Positions 38,101 to 64,000 of a stretch of DNA of 64,000 nucleotides are shown piece after piece; position 1 is the first letter of the stretch, and each line of letters begins with the position of its first letter. The stretch comes from Stylophora pistillata. Lineage: Eukaryota. The DNA lies in assembly GCF_002571385.2 (NCBI RefSeq), contig NW_019217917.1, positions 133,906-197,905 of the forward strand. Reading direction: 5' to 3'. The position numbers were made by a program.

Positions 38101-41100
38101 TGATGCCCATTCATGTTTACGAAAAAGGAAACAAAATAATGACAGCAAGACATGACCTGTTTCTTTTGTTCAGTCTCGTGCTAATCGCTCTTGTTGTGTC
38201 TGACAAAATTAACAACATTTTGGTCTTGTGGGGGTTTATCTTCTGACGGAACAAGGCTGATACTTGCGCACTTTTCAAACAATGAAATTAAACTCAAGTA
38301 TTAGGAAACTTCTGAAAAATTAAGTAAACAAAGGTGAGAGTATGCGGAGGGAAAAGGAACAGAAATATATTCTGTTCACAGAGCTCTTGACTCGTTTTTA
38401 CCTTGATTGGTTTCGACAGAGTTCAGATCAGTCATTTATTATCACTGCTCGTGCATGAAATACAAAATAAAGTCAGACCCAGCTTAATAATTAACGTTTG
38501 CATTGTTCTTACGTCATTTCAAGTGCATTTCACAAGATAAAGTCCAATGTCCGGCAGACCCAAGGGCAAGGTCATTCTTTTTCTTTATGGAAATGTTCTT
38601 TGCCATAGTCCGTCACATTGGCGAATTCATGTTAGTCTTCACTCTGCATTCCACTTATACAATGCAGCTCAACAGCAATTCTGAATTAAGAAATGCGACT
38701 TCTTCTCCCCAGGAGAATGCTTTTCACTTACTTGACATTAAATCTTGGGCTAAAGAATTATGGGAAATAGAAGTGGTTTGTTTGTAGTGAGGTAATAATG
38801 AATTTGCTTCGGGTCGAAAAGAAAAAACAAACAAAAAAACTTCTGATTGACAAAAGCAATTGAAATCCAAACTCGCGTTCCAAGCCTATGCAAGCTGATA
38901 AAAGCAAATTACCCAGGAAATGATGTCCTGGATAATTTGGTCATCGACGGAGTTGATAATTTGGTTATTAACTGAGTTGATAATGTAAATTGGCCACCGT
39001 AAAGAGTTTTAGAACTGACATTTCAAGCGGTAGCCTATATCAGATCGAATGTGCATTAACGACCAAAATTGTTATAGAACAGAATGGAATTTCAGAGATG
39101 ATAATGTCGATGTTGGTGTACCCATCAGTGATTAAAGGAAATTCAAATCTCCTTATCCAAAAAAAAAGATATATAACTAGAGAGAGAATTAAAGACATCC
39201 CTTTCGAAGAGAGATTTTCAGATTTTACGGAGACTTCTGTTTAATCGGCAGTCGACAACAACTTGAAGAAGTGTTACTTGCTTATCTTCAGAACAATGAA
39301 AATCTCTTTCATTTCCTTACTGTTAAAAGAAAGTTTCGTATGTGTTTCGTGAATGTATTTTTTCTCCTTAGTTTAATATCTATGTATTTTATTTTTCAAG
39401 GACTCAGTGAATTAGAAGATTTACGACAACGCTATAGTCGCCTGGAGGAGCTCTATAGCGAAACCGTCAAGGAAAGAGACCTAGCCATCGAGGAGAGGGA
39501 CAAAGCTACTGTGCTTATTGCCCTTCAGTTACAAAGCGAGACCGAAGAACTGAACAAGCAGATTGAAAAATTGCAAATTCAAAACAGGAAGTTGGACGAA
39601 GAGAATCAGGATCTTGAAATAAGACTCGGGTATGCCAAGGATGACCTGAATAAGTTGCAGCAAAGGCACATAGAACTACAGATCGAGCAAGAGAGATGTT
39701 TACAAGAGAAAGAAGATGCGTTGGCCAAACTGAGAGAATTTGATAATTTTAGGGATAAAAGCCACATTAATGAATTCATTGATAAACAAGGTGAAGTGAA
39801 AATGGCGAGCGGAGAAAAGGTAGGTTGCTGACCGAGCTTTCAATCTACTGGCATTAATAAATTTCATACTTCAACTCTTACAAGCAACCAATACTTAATT
39901 TCTCCTAACAATATATATATCTTATTAACCAAGCGCGAGGGCCGTACTGGGAGAATATCGGCCCGAGGTCTTGACTGTACGGACCGAGCGCAGCGAGGTC
40001 CGTACAAAAAAGACCGAGGGCCGATATTCTTCCAGTACGGTCCCGAGCAAACTTGGTTAATAAGAGATTTATTATACGACTGAAGTACAAAGGGACACAA
40101 GTGCAGTATCATTCGGGACCATTCGGGACGGTGCTCGGTCCAATACTGAGAGAATATTGACCGGCAATAGAGCATTTTGATTGGCTGATTTTAGTTATCG
40201 GCCCTCTGACTGCCCGAGTCGTGTAATAAATATGCGTTATCAAGGAAACAAACGATGAGAGTGGATGTACATAACATACAGGGAAGACTGTTTGATTTAA
40301 CTCAAAATTCTCAGAACTAACCGTTAGAAATGCAAGGCCGACCATTCAGTTATGTGCACCGTATTTTACCTATTTTAGTATAGAACAACATCCTTTTAAT
40401 GATATGTTTACAAAGTAATAATAATGGAAAAGAACTGCATCACATGATCAGCGCTTGTCCTTCCATCCATTTGGCAAAAAAGTCCAAGTAAAGTGGAGAA
40501 TACTCTTTACTAAACATGGAAAAATGATAGATAGATAGAAACTACTATTGACTTATAAACTTAAAACTGCAGAAGCCCGAACTCAGAAGGAAAAGGGGAA
40601 ATGTCATGAGACACCGTGGAATTCGATTTATAGCCAGTAGAAAATAATTTAATACTTTAAAATGAGTTATCTATATTCGAGAGAGAAAGGTTCCGTTTCG
40701 TTTGACCAATTGCTGCCAAAATTACTCTAATTTCTCTTTTATGAGTCGTGATTATATCCTGTCTTCCTTGTGAAATTAACCGACGAGACCAAGAGCCGTG
40801 ACAATGTTTTTAAGGGCTAAATTCCTCAAACGTTTTGGAGGTCAAATTGGTCTAAATGATTTACAAAAGAGAAGTAAACAGCTTAATTTTGGAAGCCAAA
40901 CATTTCTCAAAAATGGCGTATTCCGTGAGCAAAAGATTGCTTTGAGCGTAAATTTCTTAGTAAACTTAGCAAATCAAATCAAGAAATGGTCTCCCGCTCG
41001 ATTCACGGCTTTTCAATTTAACAAGAATCAGTGATTGAATTATCCCTTTTTTTTCATTTCCCAACGGTGTGCTCTTTTGTTCACGGGCGAAAACGTTACC

Positions 41101-61700: not shown

Positions 61701-64000
61701 AAGGAGAGTAAAAATTTGATGCATGATCTTGAGAAAATCACAAAAGAAAGAGAAGACGTGGAAAGTCTGAAAATCTTCAAAGAGCACGCGATGAAAGAGA
61801 TCAAGACTTTGAAAGATGAAAACCAACGCCTTCTTCAAAAAAGCGAGGATTTCGACCAAATAACAGTCGATCTCAACACTCTCAGGGAGGAAAAAGTGAT
61901 TGGACTACAGCATCTGGGAACTTTAGAGGAAGAAAGGGAGAATGCGCTGAGAGAGATTGCAATCCTAAAAAGTGAAAATCACCTCCTTCTTGAGAAAACA
62001 AACCAGTTCGAGGAAATCAAAGAAGCCTTCGAAAGTCTAAAAGGTAATGCCGAAATCCTACGAGAAAACATCGAAGCTCTTAAACTCGAGAAAGAGGCCT
62101 CAGAGAAAGCAGTTGAGGATTTAAGAAAGGAAAACAATCTTCACCTAGAAAAAGTTGAGGAATGCGACAAAATGAAGGAGGATCTTGAAACATTGAGAGA
62201 AGAGAAAGTGATAGGACTCAAAGAGTTAAGCAGTTTAACAGAGAGAAATGCTTCGTTGTTGGAAGAAGTCAAGGCAATGGATGAACTAAAGAGAGAATGT
62301 GACTTCCTTAAAAGCAAGAACGAAAAGGCACTCGAAGAAAATAGGATCTTAACAGAACTAAACGAATCTTTAGTCAAAGACCAAGAAGGCGCTCAAAGAA
62401 TATCATTAGAATTAAAGAAAGCGGAAGATGAAAGAGAAAGGATTTCCAAGGAAAATAGAGTCTTGGCAGAAAAATGCGATACTCTAAAGAAGAAAATAGA
62501 GGAGTTAACTTTGCTCAATGATGGTCAACTGATAGAATTAGGCAGGTTGAATCAAGAGTTGGACGACTCTGAGAAGGAAAACGAAGCTCTTGTAGCTAAG
62601 CTCGAATCTTTCCATGTTGTCAAAAAAGATTTCAGTGCTTCGTTGGAGAGCAACCAGAGACTTCAGAAAGAATCTAGAGATCTCGAAGTCAACTTGGAAA
62701 CCCAAGCTTTGGAGGTGATGAGATTGAAAAAGGAAACAACTGTCCTAAAAAAAAAGAATGACGCTCTGACAAAAGAAATTGAACGACTTCAGGGAAAGAA
62801 TGCTATCCTGGAGACCCAAACCTCGATAACACTCTTGGAAGAGGGTGAAGAATCAGAGCAGATTTATGAACCGAAGACCAGCGACACCAAAGGCATACGA
62901 AGAAAACTTGACGAATTAATGACTTTTGAAGAAATAGCAAATAACTACAGTGTCGAGGTAGAAAAGCCCGAAAATGTTAAACTTTCCAAGATTAACAAAT
63001 GTAACGAAGCACAAGCCTTAAAAGAAGAAGTCAATTTCCTTCAGAAAGAAGTTGAAGACCTAAGTGAAGATCATAAGGAGCTTTTGCAGTCGTATAACAC
63101 TTTACAAAAAGAATATGATCATTTGAAAGAAGAATTCGGCGTCCTTGAAAAGAGTTTGGAAATAAAGTCGAGAGAAATGAAAAGTATGACCGAAGTAAGG
63201 GATCTTTTAGAAAACACTAAGAATGAACTTGAAAATGAGCTGAAAGCTACCTCCAAAGAAAAGACCCAAGTTAGCAAGGAACTTGAGACTGTAAAAGGAA
63301 ATTGTGACTCTCAAAAGCTCAGACTGGAGATTGCCGAAAAGGAAATTGGAAACTTATCTAAAGAAAATGAAGAACTGCACCAAAATCACATCGAGTTAGA
63401 AGAACGGTGTGGTCGTATCAGAAAACTAAACAGGGAACTCGAGGAAGACATAGATATCGAAACTGGAAAGCTCGTCGAGGCAAGAGAACGTATTTCTGAA
63501 CTCAAAAAAGAGAATGCTCTTCTTCAGCAGAGGCATTTGATGCTGCTACATGAAATTGACAAATTGAAAGGAATTCCTGAGTTAAGTGGTCAAGAACAGG
63601 GCGGAGTGGCCAAAAAGATTAAAAGTATAGAGAAAAAGATAAGTGTTACTCAAATGCAGAAAGGCGATCAAGAAATTCGACCTCCCGAGGAGATGAACAA
63701 AGGCAAAAAGACGACAGAGAAGAACAAGGCCAAGGTTTCTGGAGATGAAGCACGAAAGCCTGAAGGTTGCGCGGAAAATGTAAAAGAGGAAAAGAGAACA
63801 CAGCAAAACCAGGAGGAAAGAACAGTATGGGCACTAGAGCGAGAAATAAAGAACCTTCGTCCTCAGAAAGAACGAGCAGAGGCCTTAGCCAAAGAACTGG
63901 ATCAGGTTAAACAAAGACTTGACAACGAAATAACAATTAGGAAAAGCAAAACTGAAGAGAGCAGCCAGAAGAAAAAAGAAAATGATTTACTAATTTACGA

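What the first reader, a model, noticed from the sequence alone, without database searches (positions are those of the whole stretch)
39401..64000. Unusual tandem-MLCK protein with a giant coiled-coil tail
Seen: coiled coil, kinase 1, CaM helix, Ig, acidic run (SEDDEETESEDEDE), kinase 2, then more than 1500 aa of mostly coiled coil still open at the window end. Known: kinase-CaM-Ig-acidic tail is the smooth-muscle MLCK/telokin module. Tandem kinases occur in obscurin/SPEG/UNC-89, but there they sit at the C-terminus after Ig/Fn3 arrays, not before a long rod. Inference: a possibly cnidarian-specific filament-forming or ruler-type muscle kinase, relevant to independently evolved cnidarian muscle.
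[Added by the scan's program, not by the reader: the finding's places include an assembly gap (unread letters, written N; its length is only estimated) at 50875 to 50885. Whether the letters on both sides are continuous or in frame is not known: test that first.]
Basis: partly seen in the sequence, partly recalled or inferred. Interest (0 to 1): 0.7.

Follow-up and report, generated by a model that had tools for sequence, protein, structure and literature searches.

The report
Coral tandem MLCK-like kinase with rod
This is a real, many-exon coral gene for a calmodulin-regulated myosin-light-chain-type kinase joined to a second kinase and a very long coiled-coil tail, a design shared by other cnidarians (where it ends in a death domain) but still unstudied.

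Summary
The listed parts exist, as exons of one + strand gene from about 39.4 kb to the window end: N-terminal coiled coil, kinase 1, an MLCK-type calmodulin helix, an Ig piece, an acidic run, kinase 2 and about 1,570 aa of heptad-periodic coiled coil. Two caveats were missed. The gap at 50875-50885 is not continuous coding: only the last 23 residues of the Ig domain lie to its right, and unrelated sequence lies to its left. Kinase 2 also carries an in-frame TAG (52899-52901) where every orthologue shown has Glu. RefSeq models from Nematostella, Acropora, Montipora, Dendronephthya and Rhopilema hold both kinases in one protein. All but the short Dendronephthya model continue into a long coiled-coil-rich tail and end in a death domain, which would lie beyond this window. 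The design is therefore conserved in Cnidaria, not special to this coral. My searches found it in no other phylum. Trichoplax shares the kinase-CaM-Ig-acidic-kinase core. Kinase 1 groups with MLCK; the placement of kinase 2 is unresolved. No myosin-like 28-residue charge period was found, so a filament or ruler role is unsupported. I read it as a Ca2+/CaM-switched myosin-type kinase on a dimeric rod with a death-domain docking end. Five literature searches found no description.

The parts
39400..39819 (+). N-terminal coiled-coil exon (first coding exon of the long isoform; an in-frame ATG lies at 39382)
   Evidence: 60% identical to residues 2-116 of Nematostella XP_048590455.1 and 70-71% to Acropora and Montipora residues 2-116/120. 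Donor GT follows 39819.
41339..41377 (+). Probable alternative first coding exon (short isoform without the N-terminal coiled coil)
   Evidence: Weak tblastn match (E 0.027-0.098) to the first 13 residues of Acropora palmata isoform X3 (P0166) and of P0165. Weak evidence because the exon is so short.
42358..42399 (+). Micro-exon upstream of kinase 1
   Evidence: 10 of 14 residues identical to Acropora and Montipora models (E about 1e-3).
43766..47317 (+). Kinase 1, eight exons: 43766-43864, 44148-44360, 44786-44923, 45331-45453, 45671-45721, about 46178-46204, 46701-46853, about 47273-47317
   Evidence: Pfam Pkinase on three pieces. Coordinates and GT/AG flanks. Gly-loop, VAIK Lys, HLDLKPEN, DFG and APE are all readable. 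66-86% identical to the Nematostella orthologue for six exons; the kinase-start exon 43772-43864 is 52%.
47900..49531 (+). Autoinhibitory/calmodulin-binding helix split over two exons (47900-47974 and 49289-49531), then a Ser/acidic linker
   Evidence: The KRRWQ | KSVNALKAVRRLS motif is conserved in 6 of 6 cnidarian orthologues (K[KR]RWQ). A single N at 48980 lies in the intron.
50875..50885 (.). Assembly gap. It cuts the Ig exon, and the left flank is unrelated sequence.
50886..50954 (+). Last 23 residues of an I-set Ig (telokin-like) domain
   Evidence: I-set profile positions 69-90, E=0.024. 23/23 identical to the end of the Montipora I-set domain, which itself scores E=6.9e-18.
51366..51499 (+). 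Acidic run plus the start of kinase 2
   Evidence: 64% identical to Montipora residues 651-697. The phase-1 donor after the Ig piece and the acceptor here fit, and the split codon gives Ile where Montipora has Val.
51521..52352 (.). Insertion in a kinase 2 intron: 63-nt inverted repeats around a THAP-like ORF
   Evidence: Arms 51521-51583 and 52290-52352, 94% complementary. THAP E=8.4e-4.
52806..56028 (+). Kinase 2, seven further exons: 52806-53006 (in-frame TAG at 52899-52901), 53654-53788, 54067-54189, 54474-54524, about 54646-54672, 55368-55517, about 55984-56028
   Evidence: Pfam Pkinase pieces. Intron positions match those of kinase 1. 75-87% identical to Acropora and 73-83% to Montipora. 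DFS in place of DFG.
56352..56402 (+). Short basic exon after kinase 2 (no CaM-type helix here)
   Evidence: Read. The same motif follows kinase 2 in Acropora and Montipora models.
57084..58076 (+). Coiled-coil rod exon A (331 aa)
   Evidence: 52.6% identical to Montipora 983-1288. 3.5-residue period reached by 0 of 500 shuffles.
59090..59497 (+). Coiled-coil rod exon B (136 aa)
   Evidence: 41.8% identical to Montipora 1298-1438. The heptad signal is not significant on its own.
60681..63998 (+). Coiled-coil rod exon C (1,106 codons, open at the window end)
   Evidence: 34.7% identical over 1,253 columns to Montipora 1442-2621 of 3,258. Periods 3.5 and 7 each reached by 0 of 500 shuffles.

Best explanation
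The region holds most of the coral orthologue of a cnidarian gene that public annotation calls 'SPEG-like', 'rootletin-like' or 'uncharacterized protein'. An example is Nematostella XP_048590455.1.

The protein runs as follows: optional N-terminal coiled coil; kinase 1 of MLCK type with its autoinhibitory calmodulin-binding helix; an Ig (telokin-like) domain, present in 0 to 2 copies depending on species and isoform; an acidic run; kinase 2 without a calmodulin helix; about 600 to 2,300 aa of coiled coil. In the orthologues a C-terminal death domain follows. That domain would lie about 640 residues beyond this window.

Shown: the exons, their order, their conservation and the orthologues' architecture.

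Inferred mechanism:
- Ca2+/calmodulin releases kinase 1, which phosphorylates a myosin-II regulatory-light-chain-type substrate.
- The Ig domain and acidic run hold it near actomyosin, as in smooth-muscle MLCK/telokin.
- The rod makes a parallel dimer and sets a long reach.
- The death domain docks the whole protein to another death-fold protein or assembly.

In working terms it resembles DAPK1 or ROCK/MRCK: a contractility kinase tied to a signalling or scaffold site. It does not resemble a sarcomere ruler.

Whether kinase 2 is active is open. Hexacorals have DFS or DFT instead of DFG, and this assembly has a stop codon in it.
For: - A Nematostella protein of 2,013 aa aligns in order with the window from 39400 to 58076. 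It carries 2 Pkinase, 2 I-set and 1 Death domain and is a named RefSeq model.
- Acropora muricata (3,161 aa), A. palmata (3,030 aa), Montipora (3,258 aa), Rhopilema (1,833 aa) and Dendronephthya (1,122 aa) models each hold two kinase domains.
- The window's rod exons are collinear with Montipora residues 983-2621.
- All 4 of 4 orthologue C-termini tested match Pfam Death (best E=6.3e-9).
- The Ig exon's donor and the acidic exon's acceptor are in phase, and the orthologue protein runs across that junction.
- The kinase 2 exon is conserved with its splice borders in 10 genomic ORF fragments at 75-100% identity.
- Kinase 1 plus Trichoplax k1 sit next to the MLCK/titin-like clade (bootstrap/SH-aLRT 77/88 and 67/89).
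- The K[KR]RWQ helix follows kinase 1 in 6 of 6 cnidarian orthologues.
- Kinase 2's best solved relatives are twitchin (258.8 bits), MYLK4 (251.7) and DAPK3 (244.7).
- Language-model neighbours of the Nematostella protein are DAPK2, ROCK2-like, MRCK and DMPK clusters (score 0.93; a lead only).
Against: - The in-frame TAG at 52899-52901 would end translation before kinase 2, the rod and any death domain if it is real and homozygous.
- The gap hides most of the Ig exon, so continuity across it rests on orthologues, not on this assembly.
- The death domain is not in the window.
- The orthologue models are computed predictions whose transcript support I could not see.
- One unnamed model (P0173) joins the kinases to an upstream PDZ-SH3 gene instead.
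- Substrate, calmodulin binding, dimerisation and death-domain partners are all inferred. No tool result bears on them.
- The Dendronephthya model stops right after kinase 2.
Confidence: 0.6

Rival explanations
1. One reading: a muscle thick-filament or ruler kinase whose rod co-assembles with myosin or paramyosin in cnidarian muscle.
For: The rod is long and heptad-periodic. Kinase 1 is MLCK-like with a telokin-like Ig and acidic run. Weak Pfam matches to Myosin_tail_1 and Tropomyosin (E 0.025-0.044) are below cut-off and typical of any coiled coil.
Against: No 28- or 9.33-residue charge period in the 1,106-aa exon (positive charges: 395 and 430 of 500 shuffles as high; negative: 467 and 195) or in the 331-aa exon. 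Only the 136-aa exon gave 3 of 500 for one of eight charge tests. Orthologues end in a death domain. I had no expression evidence. No myosin rod was run as a positive control.
Confidence: 0.12
2. In this genome only the front half is made: kinase 1-CaM-Ig as a short MLCK. Either the TAG is real and kinase 2-rod is a young pseudogene or nonsense allele, or the two halves are separate transcription units.
For: In-frame TAG at a codon that is Glu in all five orthologues shown over that stretch. Alternative first exons exist, so isoform diversity is real. The Dendronephthya model ends after kinase 2, and Montipora-like P0165 skips the Ig.
Against: Downstream exons are intact, including a 1,106-codon open frame. 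They stay collinear with Montipora at 35-53% identity, so any loss would be very recent. A single G-to-T difference in a gapped draft assembly may be an error or one allele. Seven orthologue models read through.
Confidence: 0.15
3. The gene is larger than the finding. The upstream CARD - coiled coil - PDZ - SH3 exons (669 to about 32650, + strand) are spliced to the kinases, giving a giant scaffold with CARD at one end and a death domain at the other.
For: An unnamed 2,995-aa model (P0173) has coiled coil, PDZ and SH3 directly before kinase 1-CaM-kinase 2-rod-death domain, with no guanylate-kinase domain. Its front half matches window 19805-19993, 22458-22901 and 31327-31464. In the window, none of the 10 ORFs I picked from those of 50 aa or more between 32.6 and 38.8 kb matches a GUK domain.
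Against: Acropora, Montipora and Nematostella RefSeq models start with Met right at the coiled-coil exon, or at the alternative exon that I also find at 41339. The Rhopilema RefSeq model starts 44 aa before kinase 1. Ab initio models often merge same-strand neighbours. Short GUK exons would escape my ORF scan.
Confidence: 0.08

Closest known systems
Smooth-muscle-type myosin light chain kinase (MYLK) with its telokin end
   Same: Kinase 1 groups beside the MLCK/titin-like clade. It is followed by a basic KRRWQ...RRLS helix, then an I-set Ig domain, then an acidic run. That this order and motif match vertebrate MLCK/telokin is recalled, not tested here.
   Different: No Ig/Fn3 array or actin-binding repeats lie upstream in any cnidarian orthologue. 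A second kinase, a rod of up to about 2,300 aa and a death domain follow where MLCK ends.
SPEG / obscurin / UNC-89 tandem kinases
   Same: Two CAMK-group kinases in one chain with an Ig between them. Hemichordate and sea-urchin SPEG/obscurin-like proteins align over 96-98% of the kinase 1-to-kinase 2 stretch at 32-33% identity. A clade of cnidarian kinase 2 with SPEG/obscurin kinase 2 is not rejected (AU p=0.40).
   Different: No fibronectin-III domain, no Ig arrays and no RhoGEF. In the best tree cnidarian kinase 2 lies outside the SPEG/obscurin kinase 2 clade, whose branch has 100/99 support. Coiled coil and a death domain replace the Ig/Fn3 scaffold.
Trichoplax 'myosin light chain kinase, smooth muscle' (P0167, 1,522 aa)
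   Same: Same core order: kinase - RRRWK helix - Ig - acidic run - kinase. Its first kinase is sister to cnidarian kinase 1 (77/88).
   Different: Flanked by Ig, Fn3 and an SH3-like stretch. A second CaM-type helix, Ig and Fn3 follow kinase 2. No long coiled coil and no death domain.
DAPK1 (death-associated protein kinase)
   Same: A Ca2+/calmodulin-type CAMK kinase and a C-terminal death domain in one chain. DAPK1-3 are among the best solved relatives of kinase 2 (239-245 bits against 259 for twitchin). DAPK2 clusters are top language-model neighbours.
   Different: No ankyrin repeats or ROC-COR in the orthologues. They have two kinases instead of one, and a coiled-coil rod instead of the DAPK1 middle. 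No DAPK sequence was in my tree, so kinship to DAPK against MLCK is untested.
ROCK / MRCK / DMPK (kinase plus long coiled coil)
   Same: Kinase head on a long dimerising coiled coil. These clusters are language-model neighbours of the Nematostella protein (0.92-0.93).
   Different: Those are AGC kinases (recalled). Here both kinases are of the CAMK MLCK/DAPK kind. This is a resemblance of design only.

Membership tests
MLCK (CAMK group, MLCK family): kinase 1 | Catalytic domain clusters with MLCK-family kinases | tested here: met
   Cnidarian kinase 1 plus Trichoplax k1 (77/88) is sister to the MLCK/titin-like clade (96/92). The joint node has 67/89 support. No DAPK or CaMK outgroup was in the tree.
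MLCK (CAMK group, MLCK family): kinase 1 | Autoinhibitory segment with a basic calmodulin-binding helix right after the kinase | tested here: inconclusive
   The sequence motif is present and conserved in 6 of 6 cnidarian orthologues. Calmodulin binding itself is not testable here, and the comparison with the vertebrate motif is recalled.
MLCK (CAMK group, MLCK family): kinase 1 | C-terminal Ig (telokin) domain | tested here: inconclusive
   Only 23 residues survive right of the gap (I-set E=0.024). They are 23/23 identical to a full Montipora I-set domain. Acropora and medusozoan models have no Ig.
MLCK (CAMK group, MLCK family): kinase 1 | Phosphorylates myosin regulatory light chain | not testable with these tools
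   Needs an enzyme assay.
SPEG/obscurin/UNC-89 | Two kinase domains in one chain | tested here: met
   for the window. for the orthologues.
SPEG/obscurin/UNC-89 | Ig and fibronectin-III arrays carrying the kinases | tested here: not met
   No fn3 in any of the 7 cnidarian orthologues scanned, and 0 to 2 Ig domains only.
SPEG/obscurin/UNC-89 | Kinase 2 orthologous to SPEG/obscurin kinase 2 | tested here: inconclusive
   Outside that clade in the best tree, but holding them together costs only 3.3 log-likelihood units (AU p=0.40).
DAPK family | DAPK-type kinase domain | tested here: inconclusive
   DAPK3 244.7 and DAPK1 about 239 bits, against twitchin 258.8 and MYLK4 251.7. No DAPK was in the tree.
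DAPK family | Ankyrin repeats and ROC-COR between kinase and death domain (DAPK1) | tested here: not met
   Absent from the Pfam results for the orthologues.
Death-domain proteins | Death-fold domain | tested here: inconclusive
   Met in orthologues: Pfam Death in 4 of 4 C-termini, and weak profile hits to RIPK1, PIDD and ankyrin-3 death domains (E 0.013-0.48). Not in the window, which ends near the equivalent of residue 2621 of 3258.

The most novel reading that the evidence does not exclude
Cnidarians built a death-domain contractility kinase of their own. An MLCK/telokin module and a second, possibly regulatory DFS-type kinase ride on a rod of about 2,000 residues that ends in a death domain. 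Ca2+-driven myosin activation would then be wired directly to death-fold signalling (cell extrusion, apoptosis, immunity or symbiont handling). That would be an independent counterpart of DAPK1. The gene also sits in conserved linkage with, and is perhaps sometimes spliced to, a CARD - coiled coil - PDZ - SH3 gene, which would put CARD and death-domain ends on one scaffold.
Probability: 0.15. Interest if true: 0.8.

Novelty: new variant of a known kind. Interest (0 to 1): 0.5.

Why it matters
The gene joins three well-studied modules that are not known together in bilaterians: an MLCK/telokin unit, a tandem second kinase and a death domain, with a rod as long as a myosin tail in between. If the inferred working is right, it gives cnidarian cell biology a direct link from calcium and actomyosin contraction to death-fold signalling. 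It also offers a second, independent example of the DAPK idea. For the evolution of muscle kinases, the kinase-CaM-Ig-acidic-kinase core in Placozoa and Cnidaria suggests the tandem arrangement is older than bilaterian SPEG/obscurin, but my tree cannot settle that. For this assembly, it flags a truncated Ig exon at the gap and a stop codon that an annotator would otherwise read through or miss.

Tried and rejected
- **Word-index search with one kinase 2 exon**. It found only short ORF fragments, because candidates were capped at 2,000 aa. It gave no full-length relatives.
- **Exhaustive search with the same exon**. It gave the Nematostella protein at rank 16. Other multi-kinase hits (P0021, P0022, P0024, P0040) have unrelated architectures and were dropped.
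- **Search for the death domain in proteins of 1,107-3,523 aa**. Only 7 of 148 candidates passed, all hexacoral orthologues. The sensitivity of that tool is low, so this is weak evidence of absence elsewhere.
- **Recent internal repeats in the rod.** Tandem Repeats Finder found none in coding sequence. Self-BLASTP of the 1,106-aa exon at 1e-6 found none.
- **AU tests**. They rejected none of three groupings, so the origin of kinase 2 stays open.
- **Left flank of the gap as a transposon.** I recalled a likeness to retroelement ORFs, but Pfam found nothing and there is no second copy in the window. I call it only 'unrelated sequence'.
- **Splice-phase table.** I stopped that step. Only four junctions were checked by eye: kinase 1 N-lobe exon to the next, Ig to acidic, acidic to kinase 2 N-lobe, and kinase 2 N-lobe to the next.
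- **Joined spliced model.** None was built or searched. All searches used single exons or database proteins.
- **Collections.** Supplements were not consulted.
- **Literature.** Searches found no paper describing this gene. One search was too broad to be informative.

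
Full report
**What is in the sequence**

The window is eukaryotic, with G+C about 0.38. The finding's region is a spliced gene on the + strand, not one open frame.

Reading stop-to-stop frames and their GT/AG flanks gives these parts:

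- a coiled-coil exon at 39400-39819
- a probable alternative first exon at 41339-41377
- a micro-exon at 42358-42399
- eight kinase 1 exons (43766-47317)
- a basic helix split over 47900-47974 and 49289-49531
- the gap at 50875-50885
- 23 residues of an Ig domain (50886-50954)
- an acidic run that leads into kinase 2 (51366-51499)
- seven further kinase 2 exons (52806-56028)
- a short basic exon (about 56352-56402)
- three coiled-coil exons (57084-58076, 59090-59497, 60681-63998), the last open at the window end

Pfam recognises Pkinase on 3 of 10 pieces from the first half. It recognises Pkinase on 4 of 10 pieces from the second half, one of them weakly at E=0.067. All searches were made exon by exon or with database proteins. 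The joined step, building and searching a spliced model, was left out.

**The gap**

Right of the N run the frame reads the last 23 residues of an I-set domain. On its own this scores E=0.024, below Pfam's cut-off. It is 23/23 identical to the end of the Montipora Ig domain, and that domain scores E=6.9e-18 in full.

Left of the N run the sequence has no likeness to the missing Ig part, no Pfam match and no second copy in the window. It merely happens to be in frame.

The two sides are therefore not continuous coding sequence. About two thirds of the Ig exon and some intron are missing. The order of the flanks still agrees with the orthologues.

**A stop codon in kinase 2**

The N-lobe exon of kinase 2 (52806-53006) reads through the Gly-loop and the VAIK lysine, then meets TAG at 52899-52901, then continues in the same frame. 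All five orthologues shown over this stretch (four named species plus the unnamed Montipora-like P0165) have Glu there, so the difference is one base.

No workable intron can remove it. The downstream exons are intact, including 1,106 open codons. The stop is therefore an assembly error, one allele, or a very young lesion. I cannot tell which.

Kinase 2 also has DFS in place of DFG. Montipora and Nematostella share DFS and Acropora has DFT. The octocoral and the two medusozoan proteins keep DFG.

**One gene or two**

An exhaustive search with one kinase 2 exon led to Nematostella XP_048590455.1, a 2,013-aa protein named 'striated muscle preferentially expressed protein kinase-like isoform X3'. 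It has two Pkinase domains, two I-set domains and a C-terminal Death domain. It aligns in order with the window from 39400 to 58076.

A search with its kinase-to-kinase region (646 hits at E<=1e-10 among 8,000 scored candidates, 120 listed) added these models:

| Species | Annotation name | Length |
|---|---|---|
| Nematostella | rootletin-like isoform X2 | 2,749 aa |
| Acropora muricata | uncharacterized protein | 3,161 and 3,044 aa |
| A. palmata | uncharacterized protein | 3,030 aa |
| Montipora foliosa | uncharacterized protein | 3,258 aa |
| Rhopilema esculentum | uncharacterized protein | 1,833 aa |
| Dendronephthya gigantea | MLCK-like | 1,122 aa |

Two unnamed models (P0165, P0173) also appeared. 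Each has two kinase domains.

The window is 70-88% identical per exon to Acropora and Montipora (rows under 70% were dropped from that listing). It therefore comes from another coral-like anthozoan.

The kinase 2 exon, with its splice borders, recurs in 10 genomic ORF fragments at 75-100% identity. The Ig exon's donor and the acidic exon's acceptor are in phase, and the Montipora protein runs across that junction. The rod exons are collinear with Montipora residues 983-2621 of 3,258. About 640 residues would therefore lie beyond the window.

These models are computed predictions, and I could not see their transcript support. Subject to that, the refuting condition 'two separate transcripts' is not met in seven models of five named species.

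**The end of the protein**

The last 104-108 residues of four orthologues align well, and 4 of 4 match Pfam Death (best E=6.3e-9). A profile of them finds RIPK1, PIDD and ankyrin-3 death domains weakly (E 0.013-0.48).

The window stops short of this point, so the death domain is inferred for this species.

**What kind of kinases**

I built a tree of 56 kinase domains from 33 proteins. Domain pieces covering fewer than 200 profile positions were dropped. The model was LG+G4, with no DAPK or CaMK outgroup.

- Cnidarian kinase 1 sits with Trichoplax k1 (77/88), next to the MLCK/titin-like clade (96/92). The joint node has 67/89 support.
- Cnidarian kinase 2 forms its own clade (64/81), outside the SPEG/obscurin kinase 2 clade (100/99).
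- AU tests reject nothing: kinase 2 with SPEG/obscurin kinase 2, p=0.40; kinase 1 with kinase 2, p=0.17; kinase 2 with Trichoplax k2, p=0.11.

Kinase 2's best solved relatives are twitchin, MYLK4 and DAPK3 (258.8, 251.7 and 244.7 bits).

Kinase 1 and kinase 2 share intron positions. Only kinase 1 is followed by the basic K[KR]RWQ...RRLS helix, which is conserved in 6 of 6 cnidarian orthologues.

The Trichoplax 'MLCK' has the same core (kinase, helix, Ig, acidic run, kinase), but its flanks are Ig, Fn3 and SH3-like. The core is therefore older than Cnidaria. The cnidarian novelty lies in the coiled-coil ends and the death domain.

**The rod**

The three rod exons hold 1,573 residues, with 59-64% E, K, R, D, Q and L, and few Pro or Gly.

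- Hydrophobic periodicity at 3.5 residues beats all 500 shuffles in the 331-aa and 1,106-aa exons. It does not in the 136-aa exon or in the N-terminal exon.
- Charge periods of 28 and 9.33 residues, recalled as the mark of myosin-type rods, are absent from both large exons. One of eight charge tests in the 136-aa exon reached 3 of 500.
- I had no myosin rod as a positive control.
- There are no recent internal repeats.

**How it most likely works**

- Shown: the module order and its conservation.
- Inferred from what is known of MLCK/telokin, DAPK1 and death-fold domains (recalled):
  - Ca2+/calmodulin frees kinase 1 to phosphorylate a myosin-light-chain-type substrate.
  - The Ig and acidic run keep it at actomyosin.
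  - The rod dimerises and spans a distance.
  - The death domain docks it to a death-fold partner.
- Kinase 2 lacks a CaM-type helix and has an altered DFG in hexacorals, so it may be a regulated or weak kinase.
- Language-model neighbours (DAPK2, ROCK2-like, MRCK, DMPK) fit this picture but are only a lead.

**Where the gene starts**

Upstream on the same strand lie these pieces:

- a weak CARD match at 669-1085 (E=0.0085)
- coiled coils
- a PDZ match (E=1.4e-5) in the ORF 29364-29789
- an SH3 match (E=6.3e-7) in the ORF 31246-31476

None of the 10 ORFs I picked from those of 50 aa or more between 32.6 and 38.8 kb matches a guanylate kinase domain.

One unnamed model (P0173) joins just such a front half to kinase 1...death domain. 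The two genes are therefore neighbours in a second, medusozoan-like species, or are sometimes one gene.

Against a fusion, RefSeq models in three anthozoan genera start at the coiled-coil exon or at the alternative exon that I also find at 41339.

**Literature**

- Four terms on death domain, MLCK, Nematostella and coiled-coil found 0 papers.
- Obscurin, SPEG, cnidaria and kinase found 2 papers. In PMC12198301 I read the matching passages. It treats titin-family kinases and does not mention this architecture. For PMC12812942 I saw only the listing.
- DAPK, death domain and cnidarian found 61 papers, 15 listed. In PMC5978004 I read passages on CARD-CC and MAGUK fusion, which do not mention a kinase.
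- The kinome search and the SPEG-name search gave nothing relevant. I saw listings only, and one search was too broad.

The claim 'not described' rests on these five searches of open-access text only. Supplements were not seen.

**Verdict**

The architecture is conserved across Cnidaria, is already present in public annotation under uninformative names, and appears unstudied.

The muscle-ruler reading is not supported. A death-domain-anchored, calmodulin-switched contractility kinase is the better guess. I rate it a new variant of a known kind, of moderate interest.

Noticed in passing
window 669-32649, + strand: A neighbouring gene with a weak CARD match (669-1085, E=0.0085), long coiled coils (19091-20050, 22401-22997), a PDZ match in the ORF 29364-29789 and an SH3 match in the ORF 31246-31476. 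None of the 10 ORFs of 50 aa or more that I scanned between 32.6 and 38.8 kb matches a guanylate kinase domain. It looks Dlg5/CARMA-like (recalled likeness). The same kind of front half is fused to the tandem kinase in the unnamed model P0173.
   Followed up: partly
window 51521-52352: 63-nt inverted repeats (94% complementary) flank a THAP-like ORF (51791-52480, E=8.4e-4) inside the intron between the first two kinase 2 exons. This is probably a small DNA-transposon remnant.
   Followed up: partly
window 52899-52901: In-frame TAG in the kinase 2 N-lobe exon, at a codon that is Glu in every orthologue shown. It is an assembly error, one allele or a young lesion.
   Followed up: partly
window 54560-54620: A short run coding a repeated 'MRCDA' unit, in an intron between kinase 2 exons (seen in ORFs 54236-54616 and 54511-54675). 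It looks like a simple tandem repeat.
   Followed up: no
window 3360-3602, 11135-11643, 48980: Further N runs of 243, 509 and 1 bases. The sequence flanking the 11135-11643 gap reads the same on both strands, which suggests an inverted duplication or an assembly artefact around that gap.
   Followed up: no
P0158 versus P0165 (Montipora-like orthologues): The single Ig domain is present in one model and cleanly absent from the other, so it behaves as a cassette exon. Acropora models lack it and Nematostella has two.
   Followed up: partly
P0167 (Trichoplax sp. H2 'MLCK'): It carries two tandem kinases, each followed by a CaM-type helix and an Ig domain, with an acidic run between the first Ig and the second kinase. 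This is the same core as in the cnidarian gene.
   Followed up: partly
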